From a virus (Duplodnaviria; Heunggongvirae; Uroviricota; Caudoviricetes), in the IMG/VR virus record IMGVR_UViG_3300014205_008670, positions 1 through 64,000 of that record: a DNA stretch of 64,000 nt, one strand, 5' to 3'. A program made the position numbers and the translations under genes. Shown here one piece after another: positions 11,416-52,021 of the stretch; the stretch's first letter is position 1, and every line of letters begins with the position of its first letter. The notes beneath the pieces are model-generated. The model was not told where the DNA came from. It ran no database searches and worked only from the letters and a program-made list of their open reading frames with translations.

Positions 11416-11826
11416 ATGAATAACCCATTTTATAAGAAATCTTCAAAAAAAATTGCGGGTCCTTTTAACTTAAAAAATATTGATCAAAGAACTGAAAGAA
11501 GATATTATCAAACAACCTTAAAAGATCCTGTTAGTAGTATTTATATTCCTGAATATGATACAACTTATAATAGTGGAGAATATCTTGATACAAGAAGAAA
11601 CTATTTCAAAATAATAGGTATAAAAGAAGACTCTTCAGATGTTAATAATTCTATTTTTGAGCTTCAAGAATATGATCCTTTTGAAGGCAAAACTGTTGGA
11701 TCTATTGTAAGCAGAAAATTCTATCAGATAAATGGTTATGAGATAAGAAGTGAAGAGGAAATGAAATTAATTTCAGAATCTTTGAAAAAAGGTAAGTCTA
11801 ATAAAAGTGTAAATAGTAGATTTTAA
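11416..11826 (+). CDS. hypothetical protein starting with an NPFYKK motif
   Basis: ATG preceded by GAGGAA. N-terminus MNNPFYKKSSKK shares the peptide motif repeated in the 34029..36161 protein. Confidence 0.5.
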   Translation: MNNPFYKKSSKKIAGPFNLKNIDQRTERRYYQTTLKDPVSSIYIPEYDTTYNSGEYLDTRRNYFKIIGIKEDSSDVNNSIFELQEYDPFEGKTVGSIVSRKFYQINGYEIRSEEEMKLISESLKKGKSNKSVNSRF

Positions 11827-13513: not shown

Positions 13514-13520
13514 TATTTTT

Positions 13521-14971: not shown

Positions 14972-14982
14972 GAGGCTGAGAA

Positions 14983-18748: not shown

Positions 18749-18749
18749 T

Positions 18750-27048: not shown

Positions 27049-27993
27049 TTGAAAATGTCTAAACAAGTATATATTACTTCTGGAAACATATTAGGTGATA
27101 CTAAAAAGGTTTTTGATAAGTCAGATGAATTGAAGAAAGCATTTTCAAGAGAAGATTCATTTGATAAAAATGATGATAAAACAGAAAAACAAAAAAGAGT
27201 TGATAGAAAAGCATATGAGAAATCTAAAATACAAGATCGTTCTTGGGAAGAAGTTAGAAGCTCTTCACTTAAAGTAGATAGAGTAAATGAAAAACAAATA
27301 GGAAAATCTGGAAATATTGTTGAAAATCAATTTAAAAATGAGCTTCCAGACACAAAACCTAGTTTGTTTAACTCAAACCCGTTTTTAAATATAAAAAATG
27401 AAGAATTTACTGAGCATATTATATCTTCTGGAAAAACAAAAAGAAAAGAAGAAAGAAATAGAAAAAATAGTGGTAGGGATTTTGAAATTTCAAAGGCAAC
27501 AAATACTTCAGATATTCCAGCAAACATGATGGGCTTTACTCCGCATAGAACCTCTTTAACTCAAGGTGAGCTTCCAAGACTTCCAGAGCTTCCAGAAATA
27601 AAATTACAAAAAGAAAATATTACAAGATCTATTGAGGCCGGAATGAAAGTAGCCGAAATTTATAAAGAAATAGAAACAAAAAAGCATGAAGAGTTCTTAA
27701 AAGATGCAAATGATGTAAGAAAATGGCAGGATTATGCTGCATCAAAAATAGAAAAAAATTATACTAAAAAAATGGATTCTACAGAAAAACCTTTTAATTT
27801 TGGGAACCCAAATGAATATAGAGAGTCTTCATATAAAGAAGATTTATCTCAAATATTTAAAAAAGAAGAAATGTCTAATAACGAAGTTAATATTAAGAAA
27901 GATAGAAAAGATATTGAAAATTCAACAAGAAAACATCGTAGTGATGATAGGTCTTGGGAGTCAACAGAAAACTCCAAATCTAAAAAGTTTTAA
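27049..27993 (+). CDS. hypothetical highly charged protein
   Basis: RBS GGAG. Lys/Glu-rich. Confidence 0.5.
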   Translation: MKMSKQVYITSGNILGDTKKVFDKSDELKKAFSREDSFDKNDDKTEKQKRVDRKAYEKSKIQDRSWEEVRSSSLKVDRVNEKQIGKSGNIVENQFKNELPDTKPSLFNSNPFLNIKNEEFTEHIISSGKTKRKEERNRKNSGRDFEISKATNTSDIPANMMGFTPHRTSLTQGELPRLPELPEIKLQKENITRSIEAGMKVAEIYKEIETKKHEEFLKDANDVRKWQDYAASKIEKNYTKKMDSTEKPFNFGNPNEYRESSYKEDLSQIFKKEEMSNNEVNIKKDRKDIENSTRKHRSDDRSWESTENSKSKKF

Positions 27994-28006
27994 TTGGAGT
28001 AAAAAA

Positions 28007-33304: not shown

Positions 33305-34057
33305 TTGATAAACTTTATTGAACATACAGAACTAAATCCAAAAAAAGAAACTGACTATTGCTCTGTTCTTCCATTGAGTGTATTGAACTTATCTCATTCT
33401 AAAAAAGATAAAATAAGAACAGGTGGAGAAAATTACAACAAACAAAGTAGCAGAGATTCCTTTTCCTGTTTCCCAGAAAATGTAAACGAACTTTGTTATG
33501 ATTTTTATCTAAAAAATTCTAAAAATATTTTTGACCCTTTTGCTGGCTGGGGAGAAAGAAGTAAAAAAGCAAAAGAAAAAAATAAAAACTATTTTGGATA
33601 TGACATATCCCCACTGGCAATTGAATATGCAGAGAAAAACTTTAATGTAAAAAACAATTTAGGAAATTCTCTAACAGATGAAATTCCACTACATGACGGA
33701 TTAATTACATGTCCACCCTATTGGAATTTAGAAAAATATGAAGGTGAAGGATTGCAAAAAAATAAAACTTGGAACGATTTCCTTACCTCATATAAAAAAA
33801 TATATTCCAGATGTTTGGAAAAATCAACCGATCAGGCCACTTACTGTATTATGGTTGGAGATTGGAGATCAAAAGGAATTTATTATAACCTAAGCTTTGA
33901 AACAGAAAAAATAATGCTAGAATTAGGAATGAAAACTTTTGATAAACTAATTGTTTCAAGAGCGAATAATACAAAAATAAAAATACTTCTACCTCAAGCA
34001 AAAAAACTAGGATATTCGGTGAAAGTTCATGAATACTTATTCATTTTCAAAAAATAA
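33305..34057 (+). CDS. DNA methyltransferase (N6-adenine/N4-cytosine type)
   Basis: Motif I FDPFAGWG and motif IV TCPPY. Apparent TTG start. Paralogous to the C-terminus of the 49900..52020 protein (PPYWNLEKY vs PPYYDLEHY). Confidence 0.7.
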   Translation: MINFIEHTELNPKKETDYCSVLPLSVLNLSHSKKDKIRTGGENYNKQSSRDSFSCFPENVNELCYDFYLKNSKNIFDPFAGWGERSKKAKEKNKNYFGYDISPLAIEYAEKNFNVKNNLGNSLTDEIPLHDGLITCPPYWNLEKYEGEGLQKNKTWNDFLTSYKKIYSRCLEKSTDQATYCIMVGDWRSKGIYYNLSFETEKIMLELGMKTFDKLIVSRANNTKIKILLPQAKKLGYSVKVHEYLFIFKK

Positions 34058-36161
34058 ATTTAAATGCCCTAGATGCAGTAAGGCAGATTATAGTATACAA
34101 AATCAAGGTGGCTCTAAACCAACTTTCCTACATTGCAAATCATGCGGATATAATGCTACCGAAGTGTCTTGGAAAAAACAACAAGAAGATCTATCAAAAG
34201 AAGTAGTTGCAAATGGTCCATCTGGAATTGGATCTGATACAAAACCAGCCTCAGATCAACCTAGCACTGAAAATAACCCGTTCATTATAAATCAAAAAAG
34301 CTTATCAAAAAAACCAAAAAAAAGACCAGAAAAAGCTTTTGGAAAAGAAGACCCAGAAGAAATTAGGAGAGTTTCAATGCAAAATCCATTTTATAAAGAA
34401 TCAAAAATAGATAATATAAAAATTATTAGACTAGGTACAGATAAACATCCGGCTACACCTAAAAGTCTAATAGCACAAAAACAATTGTCTATAATTTCCG
34501 AAAAAACTTCTAATCCATTCTATAAAAAATCTTTTTATGGAGACAAAAGCTTTGATTTAAACACAGATCCATATAGCATTGTAAGTGGATATATTAATGG
34601 CGCTTTTGATGACTTCGATGAGTTAGTAGATGCACTGAAATCTCAAGGTGTTGAGGGAAAAGAATTAGAAAAATTTGTTAATGATGCTCTTGACGGGAAA
34701 AAAGAAAACGAAGCCAATAAAGAAAGCGAAGAAGATAACTTTCATGATGAAGGCTGGACCGAAGATAGACATCTTGATGAAAGATGGGAAAATAGAGCAG
34801 ATCAAGACTTTGGACATTCTTTATTTGGATCAAAAAACCCATTCTATAAAAAAAGCAACATAGAAGATAAAGTCCTTAAAGATGCTATCGCAAAAGACGC
34901 AATATCAGTTTGGAAAGATCCAAAAAATAAATTAAGATTTTTTAAAGAAGATAGAGGTCCTGACGGAATGCAGTTTACAGAAAACGGCGGAGAAACATGG
35001 TCCTTTTCACAAAGAACAGAAGATGAAATAGAAAAAATGGGCATGGTTAAACTAATAGATGGCTCTGAAGAAGATAATAAATATTGGGATGAAGGAGAAA
35101 AAATGGGATTTGATAATGAAGAAGAATGGGATTCTATGAGCGATTCTTTTGCCTCTAAAAATCCATTTTATAAAAAAAGCGAAAATGAAAATGAAAAAAC
35201 ATATCTAGCAGTGGAGAAATCCTCTGGCAAAGTCCTCCTAGATGTAAAATCAAGTAGCAAAGAAAAAGCAAAAGAATCTTTTGAATCAAATCCAAATTTG
35301 AAGAAAACAGAATGGTTTATTAAAGAACAAAATTCTTCAAATCCATTCTACAAAGAAGCCCGTGAATTTGGAGATAGATCTAACTATGGAAAAATCATGA
35401 AAGAAATTTCAGACAAAAACATGGTATATCCAGAACAAAATGATTTTATTAATAAAAAAACAAAAAATAAAGACTCTAAAGAAAAATCTAAAAAATCTGA
35501 TGCCCCAAAAGCTACTCCAAATGTAGACGAAGGAGAAACATCAAACTTAGATAGTACATGGAGCTATAATACTGTTGATAGAAAAGAATATAGATCTTCT
35601 CCAAAACCGCAAGATTATATCCCCGGATATAAAGAGTGGTACGACCAAGAAGTAGATCCGTACTATGATGGCTGGCTTGATGATCACATAGAAAATTCTG
35701 GTGGGTCTATTCCCGGATCTAATACAGAAAAAACTATGAATCTTAATGCCGGAGAAAGAGAACACTCTCCAACATTTCCAGCAGAAGCAGTTTATGAAAA
35801 ATTATTAGAAAGTAGACATAATTTCGATGGAGATTATACAAGAATAGTAGCAGAAGGAAAATCCTATCTTTTTAAAAAATCAGATGTGGAAAATATTTTA
35901 AAAACCTCCTTTACACACTATCAGTATCTTAGAGATGATCCTGAATTTGAAGCTTATTTTTCTGAAAAATTAAAAGAAGCTAGAAAAAATAGATCATTTA
36001 TGGGAGATGCAGATGCAGCCGTCATGCATAGATTTGAAGAACATTGTTTAGATGAATTTGGACAAAACAAAGAAAATGATAAAGAACTAAAAAGTTCAAG
36101 CTGTAAAAAAAAAACTTTGACAAAGAAATCAATGTCAGGTCTCCATACAATCCTGATGTGA
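34029..36161 (+). CDS. zinc-ribbon protein with repeated NPFYKK peptide motifs
   Basis: N-terminal CPRC...CKSC ribbon. Motifs QNPFYKES, SNPFYKKS, KNPFYKKS (x2), SNPFYKEA and NPFIIN, all in frame. Confidence 0.65.
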   Translation: MNTYSFSKNKFKCPRCSKADYSIQNQGGSKPTFLHCKSCGYNATEVSWKKQQEDLSKEVVANGPSGIGSDTKPASDQPSTENNPFIINQKSLSKKPKKRPEKAFGKEDPEEIRRVSMQNPFYKESKIDNIKIIRLGTDKHPATPKSLIAQKQLSIISEKTSNPFYKKSFYGDKSFDLNTDPYSIVSGYINGAFDDFDELVDALKSQGVEGKELEKFVNDALDGKKENEANKESEEDNFHDEGWTEDRHLDERWENRADQDFGHSLFGSKNPFYKKSNIEDKVLKDAIAKDAISVWKDPKNKLRFFKEDRGPDGMQFTENGGETWSFSQRTEDEIEKMGMVKLIDGSEEDNKYWDEGEKMGFDNEEEWDSMSDSFASKNPFYKKSENENEKTYLAVEKSSGKVLLDVKSSSKEKAKESFESNPNLKKTEWFIKEQNSSNPFYKEAREFGDRSNYGKIMKEISDKNMVYPEQNDFINKKTKNKDSKEKSKKSDAPKATPNVDEGETSNLDSTWSYNTVDRKEYRSSPKPQDYIPGYKEWYDQEVDPYYDGWLDDHIENSGGSIPGSNTEKTMNLNAGEREHSPTFPAEAVYEKLLESRHNFDGDYTRIVAEGKSYLFKKSDVENILKTSFTHYQYLRDDPEFEAYFSEKLKEARKNRSFMGDADAAVMHRFEEHCLDEFGQNKENDKELKSSSCKKKTLTKKSMSGLHTILM

Positions 36162-36355: not shown

Positions 36356-36628
36356 ATGCCAAGTTTTGAAAAACACTGTGAAGATTGTGAAAGAGAACTA
36401 GGTGATAGGTGCGAAGAAGTTAATAGGTGGATGGACGAACTCTTCGCTAGTATGGGTCCTAAACATAGAATTGTTAGACACCATGAAGGTGGTGTAAAAG
36501 AAGCAGAAAAACTATTTGGTGCTATCGGTAAAAAGGCAGCGGAAATTCACATAAAGGCTGATTGTAGTGGAAGAATACCAACAGAATTAGAAGCCAAGAT
36601 GTGGTCCTTGTTCACTTGGGGCAGATAA
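36356..36628 (+). CDS. hypothetical Cys/His-rich small protein
   Basis: RBS present. Higher local GC than surroundings. Confidence 0.5.
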   Translation: MPSFEKHCEDCERELGDRCEEVNRWMDELFASMGPKHRIVRHHEGGVKEAEKLFGAIGKKAAEIHIKADCSGRIPTELEAKMWSLFTWGR

Positions 36629-36674: not shown

Positions 36675-39600
36675 ATGAGTAGATTCGGTAAAAACAATAC
36701 TGGAATTAGACTGTTCGATAAAGATTCTTATATTTTCTCTAAAGGCAGAACCGCATCAGAAATTATTAATGATGCAGGAGATGCCATAAAAGGAACACTA
36801 CCAAAAATAAAAACAGCAATATCAGAAAACATATCAACAGGAAAATTTCAACCAAGAAATCCTAAATTCGCAAACTTCGCATCACCATCAACATTCGGCG
36901 CCTTTGGCTCCGGTGTTTCTGGTAGCACTATGTACACATCACCAACATTCTATTCACCAATTCATACCGCTACTAACTGGCAAATTCCAACCAAGCGAAA
37001 AGAGGTCTATCAGTGGCGCTGTTCAAAAAATACCTTTTTACTAGAAGAAGATTTGTCCTTCTGTCGTATTGATTCTATTGAGTTTGCGTGCAACGAGATA
37101 ACTCAAGATATTGTCACTGGAGGCATCATACACGAGAATATTGATTGTTCTCCAATTTATGGTGGAATTTCACAATTAAGAAATCCAATAAATTTTTTTG
37201 AATATCCAGATGTGGAAAGTGAGTATATTAAAATAAAAACTCATGGATCATGGAGATTATTAGATATTCACAAAGAGCATAATGTCTATGTGGTAAAAGG
37301 AAAGCCTCTTCGTAAAGAACAAAAGAAATATGGTGATAAACTTTATAAAGAAGGACATAGAGGGAATTTATGTAAAAAATATTATATAGAGAATAAGTCT
37401 TGGCCAATAGAAATGACTCCCGCAAATAATGTGGAAAGGGGAGATTTTCTTTTATTTCCAATACCAGAATTTAAAAGGGAAGATATTCAAGATTTAGACT
37501 TTTATTGGCTTATAGGTTTAATTGCTGCCGATGGTACTGTTCGTGAAGATTATATTCATTTAAATATAAACAATTTAGAATATGACAAATATATTGACAC
37601 AATATCAACATTGCTTCCTATTCATAATAAATATAGTCACGGTGATAATTGCACAAGAATTTCAAAAGGGAATAAAGGTGGATTCTTAAAATATACTCAA
37701 TATATTTTAGGAAAACTTGAAAATAAAAAATTTACCAAACTTATAACCCATTTAAGCAAAGAACAAATCCTTTCTATTCTTGGTGGTTATTTTGATGGAG
37801 ATGGTTCTTTTACTCATCAGAACAAATTGGTAGCAAACAATGTATCTTGTGATATGTCAGACCAAATATATCATATGTGTTTAATGTGTGGAATTCATGC
37901 TTCTATTGGAAAATATACTAGAACTGGGGATCACTATCCAACACATAATGAAGAGTATTATAGAATATTTATTCCTGCGAGTGATGTTCATATATTAAAA
38001 CCTTATATGAAGTCTGATAAGATTCCTGCTGATTTTGATTTTGATGGAAATGACAGAACTTTAAGATTCTTTTTTACTGGTGAAGATGGTGTAAAGTATT
38101 ATGCCCAGCAAGTTGCCAAAGTAGAGGAATATTTATATACAGGTATAGGATATGACATTCAGATAGATCCAGAACGTTCTTATGTGGCTTCAGGATTTAA
38201 GATTTCCAACTGCCGTTTCTTTTCCCAGAACGATCCAACAATAGCATCTTCTTTAAGATTTTATTCTCAATTTCCTTTTGCTGGATATGAAAACGTTATT
38301 GGTGATCCAATAAGAAAAGAATATTATGATAATTTGAAAAAAAGATTACAAATTGAAAAATGGCTACCAATGATAGCTTACGAATACTTTACAATGGGTG
38401 ATGCTTTTCCATTTGTTAGTATAGACTGTGCCGAATGTTCTGGATTTGGCAAAAAGAAAAATGGTGAGGTTTGTAACCATACAGATGGTAGAATTTCCGT
38501 AATTTCTTTAATGAATCCAGATTGGATTGATGTTAAAATTAATCCATTAGATCCGAGCAATCCAATTATGAATTTAATAATGGATGACACAATAAAAAAT
38601 ATTGTTTGGAATAAAGAGCCATATGAGATATACAAACAAATTCCAGATTATATAAAGAAATATGTTCTAGCGAATAAGCCTATTCCATTAAATAAAAATT
38701 GTGTTACTCATCTAAAGCATGATGAGGTTCCATATATGTCTTATGGAAGAAGTCTTTTGTGTCCATTATTTCCTATTCTAGCTTATCAAGATAAGTTAAG
38801 ACAAGCTCAGTGGATTGTTGCTGAGAGGCATATATTGCCTATAAAGATATGTAAGATAGGTAATGATAATCGTCCTGCTGGACCTCAAGATATAGCTGAT
38901 ACACAGAGACAGTTGGCGATAACTGCTAGTGATCCAAATTTAACATTAGTAACACACCATGCATTTGATTTCTCGTGGGTGGGTTCTTCTGGAAAGGTTC
39001 TTCAGTTATCTAAGGAATATGAATTGATAGAAAAGGCTATTATTAAGGGACTTGGAGTTAATGAGGCTTTGTTGAGTGGCACTGGTCCAAGTTACAGCCA
39101 AGCGGCGATTGGAATAGAGGCTACTATTAAAAGACTTAAAACGGTTCAAAATATGTTGGCAGATTGGATTGTGGAGAAGATATATAAAATAGAAGCAAGA
39201 ATGAAGGGTTTTTACAAGGAAGATTTGCAAGGGAATAAGGTTTTAGATTATCCTGATATTAGATGGAATGATTTAAACTTAAGGGATGAATCTCAGAAAA
39301 ACAGTTTATTCATGCAATTATGGGATAAGAAAATTGTATCTACTCAATTTATTTGTGAAAAATTACAAATAGATTATGATGTTGAGACGGAAAGGGTTCG
39401 TCTTGAATCTGAGTTTCAGCAACAATTAGGCATTACTGATGATGGTAGTGGTGGGAAGCCTAAGGGTGGTCTTGGTGGTTTGGGTGGTGGATTTGGAGGA
39501 GGTGGTGGGAAGGGTCTTGGAGGAGGTTTGGGTGGTCTTGGTGGTGGGGATTCTAATAAGGGTAATTTACCGGGTGGTCAGAGTGGTCCCGGGCTTCCGG

Positions 39601-40157
39601 GTGATAGTATTGCGCCATCTATGAGTGGTGGTGATGAAGCTGATTACGAATTAAAGCTTAAGTCATATGAGCAGGCAAAAGATTATTTGCCTGCGGTACA
39701 TAGACCGAGGAAGTATAAGGTAAAAAAGCCTAAAGAGCCAATGGTTCCTCAGGTAGAAGAGCAGCAAACTGGAATTGCTTTAGATGGAAGGACTGGTCAA
39801 TTTAGATTAACGTCAATTGAAATGGATTTATATAGGGCAGTAAAGCGTGGTCAAGAAACGGGTAATTTGCCAATGAATTTTATTATGCAACAAAAACCTG
39901 AGCCGATTGAGATGGCTAAGGTTACTGTTGATGGGTTTTTTCCTGATATTAAGTTAATAATAGAAGCGGACGGTAAATTATACCATTCAAGTGAGGAGCA
40001 AATAGCAAAGGATAATGATAGGGACAGTAGATTAAATAATTTAGGTTGGATTGTTTTAAGATTTAAGGAAGAAGAAATAAAATATAATATAGATCAAGTT
40101 CTTGCTAAGATTATTCAGTCAGTAAAATCTCTTCAAGAAAAAAATACGCAGTACTAA
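36675..40157 (+). CDS. portal-like morphogenesis protein containing an intein, a Gly-rich linker and a C-terminal DUF559/Vsr-like endonuclease-fold domain
   Basis: The portal assignment rests on gene order (upstream of the scaffold and capsid genes), not on motifs. The insert has intein blocks and LAGLIDADG motifs. The C-terminus DFFPDIKLIIEADGKLYHSSEEQIAKDNDRDSRLNNLGWIVLRF matches the DUF559 pattern. Confidence 0.6.
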   Translation: MSRFGKNNTGIRLFDKDSYIFSKGRTASEIINDAGDAIKGTLPKIKTAISENISTGKFQPRNPKFANFASPSTFGAFGSGVSGSTMYTSPTFYSPIHTATNWQIPTKRKEVYQWRCSKNTFLLEEDLSFCRIDSIEFACNEITQDIVTGGIIHENIDCSPIYGGISQLRNPINFFEYPDVESEYIKIKTHGSWRLLDIHKEHNVYVVKGKPLRKEQKKYGDKLYKEGHRGNLCKKYYIENKSWPIEMTPANNVERGDFLLFPIPEFKREDIQDLDFYWLIGLIAADGTVREDYIHLNINNLEYDKYIDTISTLLPIHNKYSHGDNCTRISKGNKGGFLKYTQYILGKLENKKFTKLITHLSKEQILSILGGYFDGDGSFTHQNKLVANNVSCDMSDQIYHMCLMCGIHASIGKYTRTGDHYPTHNEEYYRIFIPASDVHILKPYMKSDKIPADFDFDGNDRTLRFFFTGEDGVKYYAQQVAKVEEYLYTGIGYDIQIDPERSYVASGFKISNCRFFSQNDPTIASSLRFYSQFPFAGYENVIGDPIRKEYYDNLKKRLQIEKWLPMIAYEYFTMGDAFPFVSIDCAECSGFGKKKNGEVCNHTDGRISVISLMNPDWIDVKINPLDPSNPIMNLIMDDTIKNIVWNKEPYEIYKQIPDYIKKYVLANKPIPLNKNCVTHLKHDEVPYMSYGRSLLCPLFPILAYQDKLRQAQWIVAERHILPIKICKIGNDNRPAGPQDIADTQRQLAITASDPNLTLVTHHAFDFSWVGSSGKVLQLSKEYELIEKAIIKGLGVNEALLSGTGPSYSQAAIGIEATIKRLKTVQNMLADWIVEKIYKIEARMKGFYKEDLQGNKVLDYPDIRWNDLNLRDESQKNSLFMQLWDKKIVSTQFICEKLQIDYDVETERVRLESEFQQQLGITDDGSGGKPKGGLGGLGGGFGGGGGKGLGGGLGGLGGGDSNKGNLPGGQSGPGLPGDSIAPSMSGGDEADYELKLKSYEQAKDYLPAVHRPRKYKVKKPKEPMVPQVEEQQTGIALDGRTGQFRLTSIEMDLYRAVKRGQETGNLPMNFIMQQKPEPIEMAKVTVDGFFPDIKLIIEADGKLYHSSEEQIAKDNDRDSRLNNLGWIVLRFKEEEIKYNIDQVLAKIIQSVKSLQEKNTQY
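37062..38210 (+). mobile_element. intein with LAGLIDADG homing endonuclease in the portal-like gene
   Basis: Starts CRIDSIEF. Block B-like GSWRLLDIHKEH. DOD motifs LIGLIAADGTV and ILGGYFDGDGSF. Block F/G GYDIQIDPERSYVASGFKISN, then +1 Cys. Confidence 0.6.
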
Positions 40158-40948: not shown

Positions 40949-43900
40949 ATGTCTTTTATTAAAAAAGCAAAAATACAATTTACAAATTCGTCTTCTTTAG
41001 CTGATATAGTTAAGGGTTCTTGCATGGAAGACGTTATTTTATATAACCCTAGAACTGCATTTATAAAACATGATATTTCTAAAAATTTAATTCAAGCAGA
41101 AAATTCTTTAGATATTGTTGCTGAATTAGAGCAAAGAGATCCTGATGAATGGGTTTTATTTAGGGCTAGGGCAATTGATGCTGGTGGTTCTGAAAAAACT
41201 GGAGAACATTATCATGGTGCCAATGATAATGGCGATTATTTTTCAGAGGAAGAGTTATTAAAAGTTTTTGCAAAAGATAGTAATGGAAGGCAGGTTCGTT
41301 CTTTTGAGACTTTTATTAATTGTCCTGTTTTTACAAATCATCAAAATACAGATATTGAAAAAGCTCGTGGAAAAATTATAAATGCCTTTTATGATAAGGA
41401 TAACCATTGTGTGTATATAGATGGTTTAGTTGATGCAAAAGCATATCCTGAATTAGCTAGAGGTATAAGAGAAGGGTATATAAGTGATGTAAGTATGGGT
41501 GCAAGTGTCAAGTCTTCAAGCTGTTCTATTTGTGGTCATGAGGCTGAAAACGAAAAAACTTATTGTACTCATATAAAAAACAATAAAGGTAAAAAAATTG
41601 GTGGAAAACCAGTTTATGAAATAAATCATGGTATTAAGTTTATTGAATTGTCGGCAGTAACCGATGGTGCTTGTGATAACTGTACAATTCAAAGTGCTTA
41701 TTCTGGTAGTGAGTTTCTAAAGAAATTAGATGAAACGGTAAGAAAGGGAAATAGTTTTTTATCTTCTATTAAAAATGCATCTTCAGATTCTACCATAAAG
41801 GTTGCTCGTGGTGAAGATGTTGATAAATTAAATAAGGCTTTAGATTTATTAAAAGAAGTAGCGGAACAAATTTTAGGATCAAAGGATGTTGACTTTGAAT
41901 TCCTTGAGGATATTGGATCTCTTTTAGCTGAACTTCAAAACTTAATTGTTGACCTTGTTGAAGCTGGGTTTGCCAATCAAAGTCAGGGTGGTGGGGTTCC
42001 TACTAATCCAATGGGTGAGGGTGTTCAAAAGGGTTTAAACACAGAAACACAAACAGAGACTCCTCCTGCGCCAGCGGAAATACCTCCAACCACATCTCCG
42101 CCACAGCCTTCACCAGTTGGTTTGGAAGCACAATTGCCATTAGCAGTTTCATCTCCGGTTGAAAAAAATATAAAGAATAGTAATAAAATAAAAGGGTTAA
42201 AGACAATAAATCAAGAATTGGTAAAATTACAAGAATCTATAAACAGATTTAAAATGGAACTAAAAAGTGGAGAAAACGTCATGGCTTCTAGTAAAGAGCT
42301 AAAAAGAATTCAAACAACAAATAAAATTTCTGAGAAATTTGATAAGTTACTTGAAACTCAAGCTTCCATGAACCTTCCGATTATAATTTCCGAAGGTCCT
42401 TATTCGGTAAAAATAGACTTTGAAAAAGGAATTACAGGATATGTTGGTAAGGAAGTTGTTGCTTCCATTTCAAATGAAGAATTAGAAGAAAAAGCATTAG
42501 AAAATATAAAAGAAAATCCGTCAGTTTTAGCTGGTCGTCTTATTGAAAAGATGGCTAAAAAATACAACCAAAATGGAGAGATAAAAATGGCTGGTGAAAA
42601 ATTAGATATTAAAGAAGCCCTTCAAACAAATGCACCTCCTCAAGAGCAAGTGCAAGAAGGCCAGTTAGAAGACCTCTCTGGTAATTGGTCTCGTAAAAAT
42701 GATGTTTCTGAAGCTACTGGTCAGCTTGGTGTAACTACACAGAAACAATTAGATAATGTTCCTAAATCTTCAGAAACAGGTAAAGGTGATTGGAATAGAG
42801 TTCGTCCAGAGGGTGTTAAAGAAAACTTACAAGTAACAGAAGGACAGCTTGACAATCCTACAAATCCTTCAAAATTAAATTCTGAAAGAAAAGAATCTGG
42901 TGTTGCAAAGGCTGAAGGACAGCATAGCCAAGTACAAGAAGGGCAATTAGGTGATAAGAGCCTTAATTTTGGATCTGAAAGATGGCAAGATGATACTGCT
43001 GCTGGAGATTTTATTCCAGTTACAGAAAATCAGTTTGAAGGAAAAGACAGACAGGGTACTGCCATTAATGAAGTTCCAGAAGGTCAATTAAAAAACTATC
43101 GTCAGGGTCCTGATGTTGCAAATTCAAAATCAGCATCAATACCAGCACGAGTAGTTAATGCAATGATTAATGGTATGGCTGACGCAGTTCTTAAGGAACA
43201 TGTTTCTCCAAAAGTTGTTGCTGCTACAAAGGTTGGAATAAACGATCTTTTAGTTGATACGAATAATAGGCTTGCTCCTTATATTAAGGCTTCTATTGGA
43301 AGTAATATGAAGTTAGCTTCTCCTTATTTGGAGGATGCAATTTCAGTTCTTTATGAAGATAAAGATTATTTACAGAAAAAAATAGCTTCTTATGTTGATG
43401 CAAAAATTGAAAATCTTAAAAAATTAGCTTCTGGTGTTGGTCAAAAAACACGATTTGAAGTTCTTCGTGAGGCATTTAGAAAGGAATCAGAAAGAAGTGC
43501 GTTTTCTATAGACGCATCAGTTCTTTCAAACCTATTCCCCGGTGTTTCTGACTTTACCAATTTAGATGAAAAAATGATTAAACAAAAGTTCTTAGAAAGC
43601 AATCCTGGCTCTAAACTCTTAGGGTTTAGAAAGGTAGATGGTGGATTTATTGCTGAACTTGAAACAGACAAAAACAAACCTTCTGAGGTACAAAACAATG
43701 TATCTGAACAGGTGCCTAATTTGGATTCAAATTCACAAGATGTATCTATTGGAGTAGGTCAAGAAACAATGAATACAAATGAAGAAATTCCAGTATCCGC
43801 TGAAGCTATTAAAAAGCTTAAGGCTCTTGCAATGCAAAAGAAAGCTCAAAATCCAGCAGGTACAACTCTTCCTCCTGCTGGTGGTGCTCCTGCCGGTGGT

Positions 43901-46579
43901 GCTGGTGCTCTTCCTCCAGATATTGGTGGTGGTGCTGGTAGTTTTGCGGGTCCCGGTGCTGGTGCTGATACAGAAATGGCTCCAGATGATGAACTTTCTG
44001 GAGAAGAAACAGAGGTTAGTGGAGAATCAAAACCATTTGGTGCAATAAATCCATTTACTGGAAATGAAAATGTTGATGTTATTGACGGACACTATAGAGA
44101 TGCAGATACAGGTCTTGAGTGGGAAGCTGAAGTAAACATCAAAGTTTTAAATCCAGAAAAAGTAAAGGGACTTGATTTTGTTGAAGATGAGGGTGGTGTT
44201 GATGAGGGAGAAGGTGAGCCAGATACAGAAGGAATTAATAGTGAAATAGCTTCTCCTGAAGCTGAACCTGCTGCAATGCCGGGTGCTGGTGGTGGAGGAA
44301 TGTCTCCAACAAGTCCAATGGCAAGTGCTCCAAACTGGGTTAAAGATGCTCCTTTAAGACTTTCTATGTCTCTTAGTCCAAATATGTTTATGGGTAGCTA
44401 TCTAAAGACAGCTTCTTCAAAAACAAATATGAATCACCACAAACTTGGTCAAGTATGCCCACAATGTGGTTCTAAAGACAAGGTTGCTTTTAAGAATAGT
44501 GAAGGAAATTGTGGTAGTTGTGGTTGTAAAACATATGTTTCTACTAAAAAAGCAAAAAACGGAAAAGTTGATTCACATGTTTATATGCTACCAAATATTG
44601 AAAGATCAAATAAGAAAAATCCATGGGGTGGTCATGCTGTAACCGCAGAAGTTGAAAACAGAGAAGAAATTCAGAAAAATATTCATACAATTCTTTCTCA
44701 AAGAAAAGCTTTATTAAAGGCTGCTGCAACAATAGATCAAGATCCTTGGATTGCTTGTGTTTCAGATCAGGTTACTTCAGGTTATTCTGGAGATAATGCA
44801 ATTCAAATTTGTTCTTCAATAAGAGACATTCAACTTAAAAAGATTGCAATGGAAAGTGAAAATTCAAAAAATCCTTTTGAAAAGAAAGATAAAAAGAAAA
44901 ATGAGAAATCAGAAGACTCAAATGATGAAGAAACTGATAAATTAGAAGATTCTAATAAGTCAGATGATGTTGATTTTGAGGAGACAGAAGATAAGAGTAA
45001 GGATGATGATGTTGATTTCGAAAACGAATCTTCAGAAAGTGAAGTTGATGGTGAAGAATTAGGACTTGAAGATGAGTCTTCAGAAATAGAAGGTGAAGAA
45101 GACAATGTAGAATTCGAAAACGAAACTGAAGGTGAGGAAGTTGCGGATTCCTTTGGTGATGAATTCGAAGAAATAGAAGAGGATGATATGAATGCTGAAG
45201 TTGCAGAATTAGGTTCTCCAACTTCTATAAAAGTTACTCTTCAAGATGCTGAAGGGAAAACCGTTGAATTAGTTGCCGATGATGGTGGAATTACTGTTTC
45301 AGAACAAGAAGAAGTAGAAGGTGAAGTTGGAACAGAACCTGAATTTGGTGATGATTTTGGTGATGGTTTTGGAGAAGAAGGTGATTTAGAGGATGACATT
45401 GAAATTAATGATGTTGTGACTGATTCTGATGTTGAGGAAGATCCTCTTTCTTCAGTTTTTAGTGATGGGCTTGATAAGTTTGACGAAGAAGATTCAGAAG
45501 ATGAAGAAGAACCAAAAATGACATCTGCTGATATAATGGCTAAATCTCTTCAAACATCAGAACTTTTAAGAGGAGATAGAGTTGCATCTTCAAATAGAAG
45601 TGGTGGTGGATCTTTAGATATGGATATATTAGCTGCTGCTTTAGGATTCAAAAAAGAATCAACTCAGACTGTACCAACAGGAACTCCGGTAAAGGGTGTT
45701 TTGAGGGATGAATCAGTAGGAGTTTCAGATGAAGGCGGAAATGTTCATACCACAGAGCATGAAAATACAGCAAAGAAAAGAAATTCAATTGCAGACAGTT
45801 CTTTTAATGAAAAGGGAGTAGTTGATGGTTCTGGTCGTGGAGTTGAAGTTATAAAGGGTAGGGAAGGGCGTTTTTCTGGTTCAAACAAGGACGTTGTAGT
45901 TGCAAATGAAAAAACTAGTGACTGCAAGAAAAGAAAAGACGTTCATCCTGTAGATGAAACAGGTGGTGGAGAAAGAACTTCAAAAGAAAAACAAATGGCA
46001 AAACAGTTTAAAGGATCTACTGAACCTAAAGAGAAAAAAGAAGCTTCTAAGAATGTTAAGGCTCAATCACAAGCAAAACAAACTGAACCAACCGATGTCG
46101 GTGATGGAGAAAAGGGTGGTGAAAAAATTAAAACACCACGAAATACTTCAAAATCAAAGCCAGAAGAAATTGAAGGAAGAAAGGATGTAAAGTCACCATT
46201 AAAGGTTCGTAAAGACAATTATGGAAAGGGTTCTGAGGGTAAGAATCTTCATACCGATATTGTTCCTAGAGACAAAGGTGGTGATGGTCTTGGTGGAAAG
46301 GCAGTAACTTTCGAGAAAGAAAATTCAGAAAGTGCAACTTCTGGAAATCCTGATACATATGTTCAGAAATTCCAATCTGACAGTTACATTAAACCAACTT
46401 CATATGGAAAAGAAGAAAACCATGCAACAAGTGGTCCAAATACAGCATCGTCTTTGGCAATTAAAAAGGTAGCAAGTGAGAACGGAATAAAGAATCTTAA
46501 AAATCTTGAAGCAGTAGATTTCGGAGGCTTTATTGTTGTTAGAGACTTAAAAAACGGAAATACATTTAGAGTAGAATAA
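40949..46579 (+). CDS. giant virion morphogenesis protein (1876 aa): N-terminal region with a zinc ribbon that sits in the protease/scaffold slot, long acidic and Gly/Pro-rich low-complexity tracts, C-terminal module paralogous to the next gene
   Basis: RBS AAGGGAG. Position between portal and capsid. Asp/Glu-rich segment 44900-45500. Gly/Ala/Pro tracts. The C-terminal ~110 aa repeat in the 46758 gene. Confidence 0.7.
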   Translation: MSFIKKAKIQFTNSSSLADIVKGSCMEDVILYNPRTAFIKHDISKNLIQAENSLDIVAELEQRDPDEWVLFRARAIDAGGSEKTGEHYHGANDNGDYFSEEELLKVFAKDSNGRQVRSFETFINCPVFTNHQNTDIEKARGKIINAFYDKDNHCVYIDGLVDAKAYPELARGIREGYISDVSMGASVKSSSCSICGHEAENEKTYCTHIKNNKGKKIGGKPVYEINHGIKFIELSAVTDGACDNCTIQSAYSGSEFLKKLDETVRKGNSFLSSIKNASSDSTIKVARGEDVDKLNKALDLLKEVAEQILGSKDVDFEFLEDIGSLLAELQNLIVDLVEAGFANQSQGGGVPTNPMGEGVQKGLNTETQTETPPAPAEIPPTTSPPQPSPVGLEAQLPLAVSSPVEKNIKNSNKIKGLKTINQELVKLQESINRFKMELKSGENVMASSKELKRIQTTNKISEKFDKLLETQASMNLPIIISEGPYSVKIDFEKGITGYVGKEVVASISNEELEEKALENIKENPSVLAGRLIEKMAKKYNQNGEIKMAGEKLDIKEALQTNAPPQEQVQEGQLEDLSGNWSRKNDVSEATGQLGVTTQKQLDNVPKSSETGKGDWNRVRPEGVKENLQVTEGQLDNPTNPSKLNSERKESGVAKAEGQHSQVQEGQLGDKSLNFGSERWQDDTAAGDFIPVTENQFEGKDRQGTAINEVPEGQLKNYRQGPDVANSKSASIPARVVNAMINGMADAVLKEHVSPKVVAATKVGINDLLVDTNNRLAPYIKASIGSNMKLASPYLEDAISVLYEDKDYLQKKIASYVDAKIENLKKLASGVGQKTRFEVLREAFRKESERSAFSIDASVLSNLFPGVSDFTNLDEKMIKQKFLESNPGSKLLGFRKVDGGFIAELETDKNKPSEVQNNVSEQVPNLDSNSQDVSIGVGQETMNTNEEIPVSAEAIKKLKALAMQKKAQNPAGTTLPPAGGAPAGGAGALPPDIGGGAGSFAGPGAGADTEMAPDDELSGEETEVSGESKPFGAINPFTGNENVDVIDGHYRDADTGLEWEAEVNIKVLNPEKVKGLDFVEDEGGVDEGEGEPDTEGINSEIASPEAEPAAMPGAGGGGMSPTSPMASAPNWVKDAPLRLSMSLSPNMFMGSYLKTASSKTNMNHHKLGQVCPQCGSKDKVAFKNSEGNCGSCGCKTYVSTKKAKNGKVDSHVYMLPNIERSNKKNPWGGHAVTAEVENREEIQKNIHTILSQRKALLKAAATIDQDPWIACVSDQVTSGYSGDNAIQICSSIRDIQLKKIAMESENSKNPFEKKDKKKNEKSEDSNDEETDKLEDSNKSDDVDFEETEDKSKDDDVDFENESSESEVDGEELGLEDESSEIEGEEDNVEFENETEGEEVADSFGDEFEEIEEDDMNAEVAELGSPTSIKVTLQDAEGKTVELVADDGGITVSEQEEVEGEVGTEPEFGDDFGDGFGEEGDLEDDIEINDVVTDSDVEEDPLSSVFSDGLDKFDEEDSEDEEEPKMTSADIMAKSLQTSELLRGDRVASSNRSGGGSLDMDILAAALGFKKESTQTVPTGTPVKGVLRDESVGVSDEGGNVHTTEHENTAKKRNSIADSSFNEKGVVDGSGRGVEVIKGREGRFSGSNKDVVVANEKTSDCKKRKDVHPVDETGGGERTSKEKQMAKQFKGSTEPKEKKEASKNVKAQSQAKQTEPTDVGDGEKGGEKIKTPRNTSKSKPEEIEGRKDVKSPLKVRKDNYGKGSEGKNLHTDIVPRDKGGDGLGGKAVTFEKENSESATSGNPDTYVQKFQSDSYIKPTSYGKEENHATSGPNTASSLAIKKVASENGIKNLKNLEAVDFGGFIVVRDLKNGNTFRVE
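46060..46400 (+). repeat. diverged direct repeat, copy 1 (paralogous coding module); copy 2 at ~47010..47340
   Basis: Nucleotide similarity is visible (e.g. gctcaatcacaagcaaaacaaactgaacca vs gctcaatcacaagcgaaacaaactgagcct), along with the aligned peptide modules. Confidence 0.6.
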
Positions 46580-48756: not shown

Positions 48757-49623
48757 ATGAGTATTATAAAGAATACTGCTAACGAGTACAACAGAGAGTT
48801 ACTCATTGCACAGGCACTTGAAACCCCAGAAGGTCGAGTTGCTTTAGCGCAAGCTATGGTTGAGCCAATCAAGAGAGCTTTAGAATATCAAGCAATTGGT
48901 AGAAAGTTACTCATGGTTGATGAGCTTCCACAGGGTGCTCTTGCACGTTACGAGAAGGATGTTGCATCAACTGCTTACGTCGTTTCAAGACGAGGCGGAG
49001 TTCGTGATCGTATCGTTGAAGGTGAAGAAGTTTTGGTTCCAACATGGGAAATCGCTGCTAATCCACAGATTAGACTAAGCGAAATCAAAGCACGTAGATT
49101 CTACATTGTTGATCGTGCCCAAATGAAAGCCAAAGAAGCTATTCAGAAACAAGAAGATACTGAAATCTTGGGTGATATTGAAGCTGCTGTTCGTGCAGAT
49201 CAAACCGTTACTCAGTCTGGAGACCTTAGTATCGCCTCCCTTAACTATGCATTCTCAACTGTTGAGTCTCACGACCTAACCGTTGCAAAAATAGTTATGC
49301 ACCCACAGCAATACGCAGACGTTAGACTTTTTGGTCGTGACGTTTTCGATGAAGCAACCCGTAGAGATGTTTTGATGTCTGGTTTGTTTGGACATCTTTG
49401 GACAGCAGACATTCACGTTTCGCATAGAGTTCCAAGAGGTTCTGTTTATCTCTTAGCTCCTGCTGAATTCGTTGGTGCAATCCCAGTTAGACAAGATATT
49501 ACCGTTCTACCTGCTGATGATCCAAAGAATTTGAGACTTGGATGGGTAATCTATGAAGAGTTGGGTGTCGTAGTCATTAACGATTATTCAATCGCAAAGG
49601 TAAATCTTACCTCAACCAGCTAA
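48757..49623 (+). CDS. major capsid protein-like (small HK97-fold candidate)
   Basis: Strong RBS AAAGGAGAA. Elevated GC/codon bias typical of a highly expressed gene. Last gene of the portal-scaffold string. Followed by the strongest terminator in the window. No motif-level proof. Confidence 0.5.
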   Translation: MSIIKNTANEYNRELLIAQALETPEGRVALAQAMVEPIKRALEYQAIGRKLLMVDELPQGALARYEKDVASTAYVVSRRGGVRDRIVEGEEVLVPTWEIAANPQIRLSEIKARRFYIVDRAQMKAKEAIQKQEDTEILGDIEAAVRADQTVTQSGDLSIASLNYAFSTVESHDLTVAKIVMHPQQYADVRLFGRDVFDEATRRDVLMSGLFGHLWTADIHVSHRVPRGSVYLLAPAEFVGAIPVRQDITVLPADDPKNLRLGWVIYEELGVVVINDYSIAKVNLTSTS

Positions 49624-49809: not shown

Positions 49810-49850
49810 GGCCAACTTAAGTTGAACACTAGCCATAGTTCGTCGTACAT
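49810..49850 (+). promoter_or_regulatory. candidate promoter (TTTTGGCCA element, palindrome CAACTTAAGTTG, -35 TTGAAC, -10 TACAT)
   Basis: TTTTTGGCCAACTTAAGTTGAAC-17nt-GTACATTAT. Shares CCATAGTT and CGTCGTACAT strings with the 18514 promoter region. Confidence 0.3.
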
Positions 49851-49899
49851 TATTATTAGTTTTGTTTTACGGACATCATGTAGTTTAAAGGATTCAAAA

Positions 49900-52020: not shown

Positions 52021-52021
52021 A

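What the first reader, a model, noticed from the sequence alone, without database searches (positions are those of the whole stretch)
34029..36161. Protein with six in-frame (S/K)NPFYKK(S) peptide repeats, same motif at the N-terminus of the 11416 gene
The ~21-nt element AAYCCATTYTAYAAARAA recurs at 34381, 34512, 34837, 35161 and 35341 (plus the NPFII variant) and at 11422. It is always in the same reading frame, giving NPFYK[KE][SA]. Its conservation at the peptide level in otherwise low-complexity charged sequence suggests a short linear motif. It could be a protease cleavage site, a capsid/portal docking peptide, or a host-protein binding motif. The gene sits just upstream of the portal-like gene and begins with a Cys4 zinc ribbon.
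Basis: seen in the sequence. Interest (0 to 1): 0.55.

Follow-up and report, generated by a model that had tools for sequence, protein, structure and literature searches.

The report
Conserved NPF-x-K peptide tags in megaphage protein
A gene next to the portal gene of a phage G-like giant phage encodes a beads-on-a-string protein whose variable modules are joined by a short conserved peptide (N-P-F-hydrophobic-K); this is most likely a docking or processing tag for head assembly, but no reader protein has been identified.

Summary
ORF 34029-36161 (710 aa) carries five in-frame NPFYK[KE][SA] copies. The sixth, "NPFII", is a look-alike that sits on a different conserved element. ORF 11416-11826 starts with MNNPFYKKS.

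The window comes from a phage G-like megaphage: its capsid protein is 54% identical to phage G gp27. The ORF belongs to an unannotated family of about 58 clusters at 50% identity, always encoded directly upstream of the portal gene.

Across the family the motif generalises to [AS]-x-x-N-P-F-Φ-K-[KEQ]-[AS], with 121 NPF-centred instances.
- It lies in predicted disordered linkers between shuffled mini-domains.
- It shows synonymous codon variation, so selection acts on the peptide.
- It is almost confined to this one protein.
- All copies change together within a lineage: Tyr-type, Val/Ile-type, or an FNLxK variant.

This points to a short linear motif read by one common partner. My best reading (confidence about 0.45) is a multivalent docking tag for prohead or portal assembly, analogous to the T4 capsid-targeting sequence, possibly coupled to cleavage. 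A pure protease-site reading is the main rival (about 0.25). The reader protein and any cleavage remain untested. It is a new variant of a known kind, of moderate interest.

The parts
34029..36161 (+). 710-aa ORF of the motif-array protein (P0001). It belongs to an unannotated family that is always encoded upstream of the portal gene.
   Evidence: ORF listed. Family of 58 representative clusters. No Pfam or PHROG hit. dN/dS against the L003 orthologue is 0.14 for the N-terminal part and 0.19 for the C-terminal part.
34056..34163 (+). N-terminal Cys4 zinc ribbon (residues ~10-45; C13, C16, C36, C39).
   Evidence: The four Cys are nearly invariant. AF2 pLDDT is 90-94. The PDB profile hits TFIIS/Rpb9/RPA12 zinc ribbons.
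34275..34289 (+). 'NPFII' look-alike (residues 83-87). It aligns with the conserved ...ASDKPxxxNDP... linker element and is not a true motif copy.
34383..34403 (+). Motif copy 1, NPFYKES (residues 119-125). It follows the conserved 'EE(I/V)RRVSM' context and is probably the ancestral copy.
   Evidence: AF2 linker pLDDT is about 40.
34512..34532 (+). Motif copy 2, NPFYKKS (residues 162-168).
   Evidence: AF2 pLDDT is about 33.
34836..34856 (+). Motif copy 3, NPFYKKS (residues 270-276).
   Evidence: AF2 pLDDT is about 40.
34857..35159 (+). Cassette C3 (residues 277-377). This partly folded mini-domain is shared with P0008 and P0009, where it sits at different positions in the array.
   Evidence: BLASTP gives 51% and 48% identity, E = 3e-26 and 2e-24. 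AF2 shows helices and strands with pLDDT up to about 80.
35160..35180 (+). Motif copy 4, NPFYKKS (residues 378-384).
   Evidence: AF2 segment 376-386 has pLDDT < 50.
35340..35360 (+). Motif copy 5, NPFYKEA (residues 438-444). It directly abuts the conserved C-terminal region (...NPFxKxAREF...).
   Evidence: F440, K442, A444 and R445 are nearly invariant.
35361..35924 (+). Conserved C-terminal region (residues ~445-632), with the core PGYKEWxDxEVDxYYDGWxxDHIxNSGGxxxGSNTEKxMNLxxGERxHxPxxPxEAxYEKLLExRH.
   Evidence: 19 invariant columns. It is also conserved in a distant subfamily that lacks the array. It gives no confident monomer fold.
36141..36158 (+). C-terminal tail LHTILM. It resembles the LHT(I/V)P(I/T)-type C-termini seen in several homologues.
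   Evidence: Read directly from the sequences.
11416..11826 (+). 136-aa orphan ORF beginning MNNPFYKKSS (motif DNA at 11422-11442). It starts 2 nt after the stop codon of the 3703-aa ORF.
   Evidence: The database holds no homologue other than the protein itself.
36675..40157 (+). Portal protein with a LAGLIDADG intein and a C-terminal DUF559 domain. It is the conserved downstream neighbour and a candidate reader of the motif.
40949..46579 (+). 1876-aa protein whose N-terminal ~250 aa form a head-maturation protease domain. It is a candidate reader or processing enzyme. It holds only one loose NPFEK and no canonical copy.
   Evidence: 40% identity to phage G gp19. PHROG head maturation protease, E = 8e-19. 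Motif scan.
48757..49623 (+). Major capsid protein (context; candidate reader).
   Evidence: 54% identity to phage G gp27. PHROG major head protein, E = 6e-72.

Best explanation
The NPFYK[KE][SA] copies are instances of a family-wide short linear motif, about 11 residues long: [hydrophobic]-[A/S]-x-x-N-P-F-Φ-K-[K/E/Q]-[A/S]. The motif sits in flexible linkers of a modular head-module protein. That protein consists of a zinc ribbon, a basic linker, a variable string of mini-domains each bounded by the motif, and a conserved C-terminal region.

I propose that every copy is read by one common partner in the prohead. The candidates are the portal, the protease-scaffold giant protein, or the inner face of the capsid lattice. 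On this view the array acts as a multivalent docking or targeting tag. It recruits the protein, its variable cassettes, and occasional separate small proteins that carry the same tag (such as ORF 11416-11826) into the assembling head next to the portal. This would be the functional analogue of the T4 capsid-targeting sequence on internal proteins, or of encapsulin cargo-loading peptides. Cleavage at or near the tag after docking is possible but not required.

Shown: the motif, its peptide-level selection, its disordered context, its restriction to this protein, the concerted change of all copies per lineage, and the conserved position next to the portal gene.

Inferred: that the motif is a docking tag, which protein reads it, that the protein is packaged, and any cleavage.
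For: (1) Non-random and in frame: 6 hits against 0.08 expected.

(2) Conserved as a peptide across the family. There are 121 NPF-centred instances, with K at +4 in 96 of 121 and A/S at +6 in 96 of 121. The flanks and the spacing between copies (7 to about 110 aa) vary freely.

(3) Synonymous codons vary at the invariant residues.

(4) All five copies in the window protein fall in AF2 segments with pLDDT < 50, between better-folded cassettes.

(5) Cassettes are mosaic. C3 recurs in P0008 and P0009 at other positions, while C1, C2 and C4 are unique. This matches the pattern of a constant tag on variable payloads.

(6) Copies also occur at protein ends. One is at the N-terminus of orphan ORF 11416. 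Others are at C-terminal tails or in separately framed small downstream ORFs in relatives. This is typical of targeting tags.

(7) Concerted evolution. NPF-type and FNLxK-type motifs never mix within one protein (P0033 does mix one NPF copy with NVF copies). The Φ residue is more homogeneous within proteins than chance allows: 59 identical pairs against 26.5 ± 4.5, and 0 of 10,000 permutations reach 59. This fits co-evolution with a single reader.

(8) Private to this protein. Across about 25 related loci with flanks of up to 10 kb, and across the 64-kb window, no other ORF of 70 aa or more carries more than one NPF. The stray single NPFxK/R matches are the ORF 11416 N-terminus, a loose NPFEK in the protease fusion, one reverse-strand ORF in L012, and small ORFs just downstream of the family gene.

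(9) Strict synteny with the portal gene, even in a distant subfamily.

(10) The most conserved C-terminal stretch has no confident monomer fold, as expected for a segment that becomes ordered only inside an assembly.

For the T4 precedent see PMC3012670, read.
Against: No reader has been identified, and no complex prediction could be run. There is no proteomic evidence that the protein is in virions. Phage G, the only cultured relative, has no detectable homologue in its first 45 kb. Only one unrelated protein in 64 kb carries the tag, so a general cargo-tag system is thinly supported. The 136-aa ORF has no homologues, so conservation of its tag cannot be checked. Homogeneity of copies within a protein could partly reflect intragenic duplication rather than co-evolution with a reader. 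The AF2 models are of low confidence overall (mean pLDDT 57 and 61).
Confidence: 0.45

Rival explanations
1. Polyprotein junction sites. The motif is the recognition and cleavage site of a protease, either the prohead protease in ORF 40949-46579 or another enzyme. Cleavage would chop the protein into its cassettes and release the conserved C-terminal product. This resembles the multi-site propeptide processing of head proteins in phiKZ and SPN3US, or the cleavage of viral polyproteins.
For: The motif sits at every module boundary, and the last copy lies exactly at the start of the conserved C-terminal region. K at +4 is nearly invariant in the NPF, FNLxK and NVFxK variants, so it could serve as a P1 residue. 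A head-maturation protease is encoded 4.8 kb downstream. An N-terminal MNNPFYKKS would be a short removable propeptide, as in the T4 internal proteins. Concerted evolution fits co-evolution with a protease equally well.
Against: The motif is absent from the other head proteins in the window and in relatives: the capsid protein, the portal, and the protease fusion itself apart from one loose NPFEK. By contrast, the prohead-protease motifs of T4, phiKZ and SPN3US occur in many head proteins.

The protease-fusion protein carries its own private, conserved repeat, (V/I)-x-E-G-Q-(L/F). This looks more like a T4-type Φ-x-E cleavage motif, which suggests a different specificity.

An 11-residue conserved footprint is longer than the 3-residue sites of known phage prohead proteases. 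That comparison rests on my own knowledge and on PMC10052503, whose abstract I saw.
Confidence: 0.25
2. Host-factor-binding motif array. The repeats bind a host protein, for example as a loose mimic of the FtsZ C-terminal peptide (D-I-P-x-F-L-R-K) or of another hub-binding tail. The protein would then titrate or recruit that host factor during infection.
For: Arrays of short motifs in disordered regions are the classic format for binding cellular hub proteins; the eukaryotic NPF-EH and NPxY-PTB systems are examples (my own knowledge). The motif resembles P-x-F-L-R-K superficially. The cassettes are variable, as expected for proteins at a host interface.
Against: The gene is embedded in the head-morphogenesis module with strictly conserved synteny to the portal gene. 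The P-F spacing differs from the FtsZ tail. The host is unknown. No EH or PTB domain was seen in any protein scanned. The gene set (an HK97-type major capsid protein by PHROG match, portal, prohead protease) is that of a bacterial virus, so the eukaryotic readers do not apply.
Confidence: 0.1
3. Autocatalytic Asn-Pro cleavage. The invariant Asn cyclises and breaks the N-P bond, as in the NPTH loop of FlhB/YscU or the N42-P43 cleavage of reovirus mu1. The protein would fragment itself during maturation.
For: N-P is invariant in the main lineage. Asn-dependent self-cleavage linked to capsid maturation is known in other viruses (my own knowledge).
Against: Whole sub-lineages replace NPF by FNLxK or NVFxK and lose the N-P bond, yet keep F and K. 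The motif lies in disordered linkers, not in a strained folded loop. No conserved His or Thr follows it.
Confidence: 0.04
4. There is no function at the peptide level. The repeats would be a DNA-level element (regulatory, recombination or slippage site), or neutral relics of recent internal duplication.
For: The motif DNA is A-rich. In some relatives the reading frame changes at Lys-rich tracts right after a motif.
Against: Synonymous variation occurs at every invariant residue. The motif is kept in proteins that are less than 50% identical, while the flanks are unalignable. It is always in frame. The DNA pattern has no excess on the other strand.
Confidence: 0.03

Closest known systems
T4 capsid-targeting sequence (CTS) on internal proteins IPI/IPII/IPIII and the hypervariable IP loci of T4-like phages
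   Same: A short conserved peptide is attached to otherwise unrelated, rapidly changing payloads encoded in the head module. One instance here (ORF 11416) is N-terminal, like the CTS. A prohead protease is encoded nearby. Source: PMC3012670.
   Different: There is no sequence similarity to the T4 CTS (quoted from memory as MKTYQEFIAE). Here the tag is mostly internal and repeated 2-9 times within one polypeptide rather than once at the N-terminus of separate genes. It has no Φ-x-E cleavage signature. Packaging and removal are untested.
Encapsulin cargo-loading peptides (CLPs) that bind the luminal face of an HK97-fold shell
   Same: These are roughly 10-residue docking peptides in disordered tails. 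They load cargo into an HK97-fold shell, and some cargos carry more than one copy.
   Different: CLP consensus sequences (GSL-type) are unrelated to this motif. CLPs are terminal. Encapsulins have no portal. No binding to the capsid protein has been shown here.
Multi-site propeptide processing of head proteins by the prohead protease in phiKZ, 201phi2-1 and SPN3US (S/A/G-x-E), and by T4 gp21 (L/I-x-E)
   Same: A large phage with a prohead protease. The N-terminal part of the protein is variable and holds several closely spaced sites. The C-terminal part is conserved.
   Different: Those motifs are 3 residues long, end in Glu, and occur in many head proteins. This motif spans about 11 residues, is centred on N-P-F...K, and is private to one protein family.
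Eukaryotic NPF (EH-domain) and NPxY (PTB-domain) motif arrays in endocytic adaptor proteins
   Same: An identical tripeptide core (NPF, and NPFY also matches NPxY). Irregularly spaced arrays sit in disordered regions and give multivalent binding.
   Different: No EH or PTB reader was seen among the window proteins scanned. The gene set (portal, HK97-type capsid protein by PHROG match, prohead protease) is that of a bacterial virus. The conserved K at +4 and A/S at +6 are not part of the eukaryotic motifs. This is convergence at most.

Membership tests
T4-type capsid-targeting sequence system | One short peptide is shared by otherwise unrelated proteins or modules of the head gene cluster. | tested here: met
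   The same motif bounds unrelated cassettes and begins the unrelated ORF 11416. It also occurs in small downstream ORFs in L014 and L021.
T4-type capsid-targeting sequence system | The tag is N-terminal and ends in a Φ-x-E site that is removed by the prohead protease. | tested here: not met
   The copies in the family proteins are internal or C-terminal; only ORF 11416 has one at its N-terminus. Position +5 is E in only 22 of 121 instances. Cleavage itself is not testable with these tools.
T4-type capsid-targeting sequence system | Tagged proteins are packaged inside the head. | not testable with these tools
   This needs virion proteomics of a cultured relative.
Prohead-protease cleavage-site arrays (T4, phiKZ, SPN3US type) | The same motif is present in several different head proteins. 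| tested here: not met
   No canonical motif occurs in the capsid protein, the portal, the protease fusion or the giant ORFs of the window or of related loci.
Prohead-protease cleavage-site arrays (T4, phiKZ, SPN3US type) | A prohead protease is encoded by the phage. | tested here: met
   The N-terminus of ORF 40949-46579 is 40% identical to phage G gp19 and matches the PHROG head maturation protease family.
EH-domain NPF / PTB-domain NPxY motifs | An NPF or NPxY core lies in a disordered region. | tested here: met
EH-domain NPF / PTB-domain NPxY motifs | A cognate EH or PTB reader exists in the system (virus or host). | tested here: inconclusive
   No such Pfam domain was found in the window proteins scanned. 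The host is unknown, but the gene set is that of a bacterial virus.
FlhB/YscU-type NPTH autocleavage | An invariant N-P bond, followed by T-H, lies in a folded loop. | tested here: not met
   The FNLxK and NVFxK lineages lack the N-P bond. The motif is in disordered linkers, and no T-H follows it.
Regular structural tandem repeats (solenoid or collagen-like) | A constant repeat period and a repeated fold unit. | tested here: not met
   Spacing ranges from 7 to about 110 residues, and the intervening sequences are unrelated.
Any curated protein family (Pfam, PHROGs, PDB) | A significant profile or structure match outside the zinc ribbon. | tested here: not met
   Only one relative (P0002) has a weak precomputed DUF8255 hit, and it was not reproduced by hmmscan.

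The most novel reading that the evidence does not exclude
Phage G-like megaphages may use a previously undescribed cargo-tag system. An 11-residue N-P-F-Φ-K peptide, co-evolving with a receptor on the portal or on the prohead interior, would load a mosaic string of small payload domains, plus occasional separately encoded tagged proteins, into the head beside the portal for delivery with the DNA. The tag would be portable and could load foreign proteins into giant capsids.
Probability: 0.25. Interest if true: 0.7.

Novelty: new variant of a known kind. Interest (0 to 1): 0.5.

Why it matters
Megaphage head assembly is almost unexplored. Only phage G is cultured, and it lacks a detectable homologue of this protein in its first 45 kb. 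A conserved, portable peptide that marks modules of a portal-adjacent protein gives a concrete handle on three questions: what is loaded into these huge capsids, which assembly protein reads the tag, and whether the variable cassettes are injected effectors such as anti-defence payloads, like T4 IPI*. If the tag is sufficient for loading, it could also be used to package foreign proteins. If it is only a processing site, it would define the specificity of a new phage protease-substrate pair.

Tried and rejected
- Pfam and PHROG scans of the protein and of 31 family members found only zinc-ribbon hits.
- tblastn against 50,697 phage records found no match.
- A family HMM against phage G's first 45 kb gave only a weak zinc-ribbon-like hit to gp29. 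The positional counterpart gp11 shows no similarity.
- AF2 of the full protein and of the C-terminal region alone gave mean pLDDT 57 and 61, so there is no confident fold for the conserved core.
- Foldseek against the PDB returned nothing with E < 0.7. I ran no further fold searches because the models are too weak.
- A PDB profile search found zinc ribbons only.
- A homologue search for the 136-aa ORF returned only the protein itself.
- A search for relatives of the C-terminus of the 3703-aa ORF, meant to find an equivalent tagged downstream gene, found none.
- A GTDB genome scan found no relatives, so the family was not found in that set of species-representative cellular genomes.
- Five attempts to extend the contig beyond the window by exact-protein look-up found nothing on record.
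- A literature search for NPF motifs in phages returned zero papers.
- A possible -1 frameshift joining the 3703-aa ORF to ORF 11416 was considered and rejected, because I saw no slippery heptamer in the overlap.
- The DNA-repeat and structural-repeat readings were rejected.
Full report
**Observation**

The degenerate 18-mer AAYCCATTYTAYAAARAA (up to 1 mismatch) occurs six times in the window, all on the + strand. Dinucleotide-preserving shuffles give 0.08 hits on average, and none of 100 reaches six. Five hits (34383, 34512, 34836, 35160, 35340) are in the frame of the 710-aa ORF 34029-36161 and read NPFYK[KE][SA] at residues 119, 162, 270, 378 and 438. The sixth (11422) gives MNNPFYKKSS at the start of the 136-aa ORF 11416-11826. 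The 'NPFII' at residue 83 exists. It aligns with a different conserved element of the family (ASDKPxxxNDP) and lacks the downstream K and A/S, so I count five true copies. The Cys4 zinc ribbon is real: the four cysteines are nearly invariant, AF2 pLDDT exceeds 90, and a family profile hits TFIIS/Rpb9 ribbons.

**Context**

The window (30% GC) is from a phage G-like megaphage.
- The major capsid protein (48757-49623) is 54% identical to Bacillus phage G gp27.
- The portal (36675-40157) matches PHROG portal families. It carries a LAGLIDADG intein and a C-terminal DUF559 domain.
- The first ~250 residues of the 1876-aa ORF 40949-46579 are 40% identical to phage G gp19 and match a PHROG head-maturation protease family. 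The phage G multi-omics paper also annotates gp19 as a maturation protease (PMC12484599).

The motif gene lies between a DNA methylase gene and the portal gene. Part of the gene order (peptidase, sigma factor..., portal, protease..., capsid) parallels phage G gp2 to gp27.

**The family**

An exhaustive HMMER search found 58 representative clusters at 50% identity. None carries a functional name, and neither Pfam nor PHROGs recognises anything beyond the zinc ribbon. Relatives occur on long phage-like metagenomic contigs (81-349 kb) and not in GTDB representative genomes.

Synteny is strict in the closest relatives (L002-L006):
- upstream: a ~1360-1400-aa ORF, a ~163-aa ORF, a ~320-aa ORF, and a 1669-1726-aa ORF;
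- then this gene;
- downstream: the portal with DUF559, a ~130-aa ORF, a ~62-aa ORF, and a ~1900-2200-aa protease fusion.

More distant members (L029, L031) keep the downstream arrangement, but their upstream ORFs differ. A distant subfamily (P0039, P0069 and others) keeps the zinc ribbon, the C-terminal core and the position upstream of the portal. It has no motif array, only a single 'GPFTKERE'-like element at the place of the first copy. The array therefore looks like a lineage-specific multiplication of an ancestral element. That last step is an inference from a weak alignment.

Against the L003 orthologue, the N- and C-terminal parts are under purifying selection (dN/dS 0.14 and 0.19), while the middle part is barely alignable.

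**Anatomy of the motif**

Across family members there are 121 NPF-centred instances. They give the following consensus.

| Position relative to N | Residue |
|---|---|
| -4/-5 (hydrophobic, by eye from the listed instances) | V/I/F/L |
| -3 | A or S |
| 0, +1, +2 | N, P, F (fixed by the NPF search) |
| +3 (Φ) | V, I, Y, L or T |
| +4 | K (96 of 121; R in 7) |
| +5 | K, E or Q |
| +6 | A or S (96 of 121) |

Copy number ranges from 2 to 9, and spacing from 7 to about 110 residues. In many members the last upstream copy abuts the conserved region as ...NPFxKxAREF... (F440, K442, A444 and R445 are at least 90% conserved). In several members further copies follow the C-terminal region or sit at the extreme C-terminus.

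In the AF2 model, all five window copies lie in segments with pLDDT < 50, between better-predicted elements.

| Element | Residues | pLDDT |
|---|---|---|
| Zinc ribbon | 10-50 | 90-94 |
| Helical cassette | ~195-229 | ~77 |
| Cassette C3 | ~290-376 | 47-82 by 10-residue block |
| β-β-α-β cassette | 390-434 | ~80 |

Cassette C3 (277-377) recurs in P0008 and P0009 (48-51% identity) at different ordinal positions. C1, C2 and C4 have no counterpart in the family set. The overall picture is a constant short peptide on variable, shuffled modules.

**Peptide or DNA?**

In 73 instances from related loci, every conserved residue uses synonymous codons: AAT/AAC, all four CCN, TTT/TTC, and AAA/AAG/AGA. 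Within the family gene every copy is in the coding frame, and outside it no ORF of 70 aa or more in any related locus carries more than one NPF.

**Private to one protein**

I scanned all ORFs of at least 70 aa in the window and in about 25 non-redundant related loci (with up to 10 kb of flank). Outside the family gene no ORF carries more than one NPF. The single NPFxK/R matches outside it are the ORF 11416 N-terminus, one loose NPFEK in the protease fusion, one reverse-strand ORF in L012, and small ORFs immediately downstream of the family gene in L014, L021 and L022. Those small ORFs correspond to modules that are in frame in P0015/L012 and L023. The FNLxK variant lineage behaves the same way.

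**Concerted evolution**

Lineages differ in the motif, but the copies within one protein agree.
- The window, P0002, P0003, P0037 and L010 use Y at Φ.
- Others use V, I, L or T.
- P0018, P0019, P0023, P0025, P0028, P0029 and P0061-P0064 replace NPFΦK by (A/P)FNLxK in the copies I inspected (P0018-P0029; regex counts only for P0061-P0064), including the one before AREF/W.
- P0033 uses NVFxK alongside one NPF copy.

NPF and FNL types never co-occur in one protein. Identity of Φ within a protein is far above permutation expectation: 59 identical pairs against 26.5 ± 4.5, with 0 of 10,000 permutations reaching 59. This fits a single trans-acting reader that co-evolves with all copies. Intragenic duplication may contribute as well.

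**Mechanism**

A motif of about 11 residues, in disordered linkers, irregularly spaced, sometimes terminal, private to one protein, and changing in concert is the signature of a docking short linear motif. The gene's fixed position beside the portal gene suggests a protein that works inside an assembly. So does a highly conserved C-terminal core that AF2 cannot fold as a monomer.

My best explanation (confidence 0.45) is a multivalent docking or targeting tag for the prohead. Candidate readers, in order, are the portal, the protease-scaffold fusion and the capsid protein. The closest functional analogues are the T4 capsid-targeting sequence on hypervariable internal proteins (PMC3012670) and encapsulin cargo-loading peptides. 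The i/i+4 pattern of F(+2) and A/S(+6), after an Asn-Pro that could cap a helix, suggests a short amphipathic helix formed on binding. That is my inference only.

**Rivals**

- *Protease junction sites (0.25).* The motif's position at module boundaries and the near-invariant K fit this reading. Three points count against it. The motif is absent from the other head proteins. Its footprint is long. The protease fusion carries its own conserved repeat, (V/I)-x-E-G-Q-(L/F), with 2-6 copies in each relative whose gene is covered. That repeat looks like a T4-type Φ-x-E site and so hints at a different specificity.
- *Host-factor binding (0.10).* It cannot be excluded, but it fits the morphogenetic synteny poorly.
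- *Asn-Pro autocleavage (0.04).* The lineages that lose the N-P bond contradict it.
- *DNA-level or neutral repeat (0.03).* The codon data contradict it.

**Comparison with known systems**

This protein is not a member of any curated family. It works most like a CTS or CLP tag, but it fails the sequence and position criteria of both. It shares the NPF/NPxY core with eukaryotic endocytic motifs, but no EH or PTB reader is evident and the gene set is that of a bacterial virus, so at most this is convergence. I rate it a new variant of a known kind (short targeting or processing peptides in phage heads), in an uncharacterised megaphage protein family.

**Limits**

There is no expression or virion data, no complex modelling, and the alignments for AF2 were shallow (20-31 sequences). 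Only one unrelated protein with the tag lies within reach. Genome-wide scans of complete relatives could not be done with the available look-ups.

Noticed in passing
window 18620-19324 (+): The intergenic gap between the intein-containing RtcB gene (15896-18508) and the Ro60/TROVE gene (19325-21010) has no ORF longer than 80 aa. It folds far better than shuffled sequence: MFE -189.7 against -134.4 ± 6.0 kcal/mol, z = -9.2. It contains a tRNA T-arm-like GGTTCGAATCC at 18659 and three 'GGTCG(T/A)A ... GATTA(T/C)C' pairs that recall, from memory, the Ro-binding stems of Y RNA/YrlA. Rfam finds no Y RNA family at the gathering threshold or at E ≤ 1, and ARAGORN finds no tRNA. This is probably a cluster of divergent phage Y-RNA-like RNAs in an rsr-yrlA-rtcB-type module.
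   Followed up: partly
window ~42650-43100 (+), within ORF 40949-46579; also L003, L006, L008, L029, L031: The protease-fusion giant protein has its own private repeat, (V/I/P)-x-E-G-Q-(L/F/M), for example VQEGQL, VTEGQL and VPEGQL. There are 5 copies in the window and 2-6 in each relative whose gene is covered by the locus; no other long ORF carries more than one match. It is a candidate array of T4-like Φ-x-E cleavage sites or a scaffold motif.
   Followed up: partly
window 36675-40157 (+); L002-L006, L029, L031: The portal protein carries a LAGLIDADG intein and a Gly-rich low-complexity linker. It also has a C-terminal DUF559 / MTES_1575 nuclease-like domain, which is conserved in every relative examined, including the distant subfamily. 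This is an unusual portal-nuclease fusion.
   Followed up: partly
L014 ~3148-3480, L021 ~686-1015, L022 643-1270, compared with L012 and L023: In some relatives the C-terminal modules of the family protein (a WWMTGPNS...NPF...zinc-ribbon module) lie in a different reading frame. The frame switches at Lys-rich, A-rich tracts immediately after an NPF motif. In L012/P0015 and L023 the same modules are in frame. The cause could be assembly error, genuine gene fission, or programmed or transcriptional slippage.
   Followed up: no
window 302-11413, 22437-26552, 27800-33295 (+): Three further giant ORFs (3703, 1371 and 1831 aa) lie in the same co-oriented block. None has a family match above threshold. 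The only hits are below-threshold matches to amino acid:DNA transferase (ADDT) and YpsA/SLOG for the 1831-aa ORF. The 3703-aa ORF itself was not scanned against Pfam or PHROGs.
   Followed up: no
window 15896-18508, 36675-40157, 49822-53716: Selfish elements are dense here. There are inteins in RtcB and in the portal, a LAGLIDADG endonuclease inside a DNA methyltransferase-like ORF (49822-52020), and an adjacent 576-aa HNH/homing endonuclease (51986-53716).
   Followed up: no
window 12204-15885: An Hsp20-like gene on the minus strand (12204-12809) is followed on the plus strand by an SPFH/Band-7 protein (13616-14971) and an M28 peptidase (14983-15885). The peptidase is at the position where phage G has its gp2 zinc peptidase.
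   Followed up: no
window 36356-36628 (+): A 90-aa DUF6915 ORF lies between the motif gene and the portal gene in the window. It is absent from the closest relatives L002-L006. L029 has an unrelated 90-aa zinc-ribbon-like ORF at the same spot.
   Followed up: no
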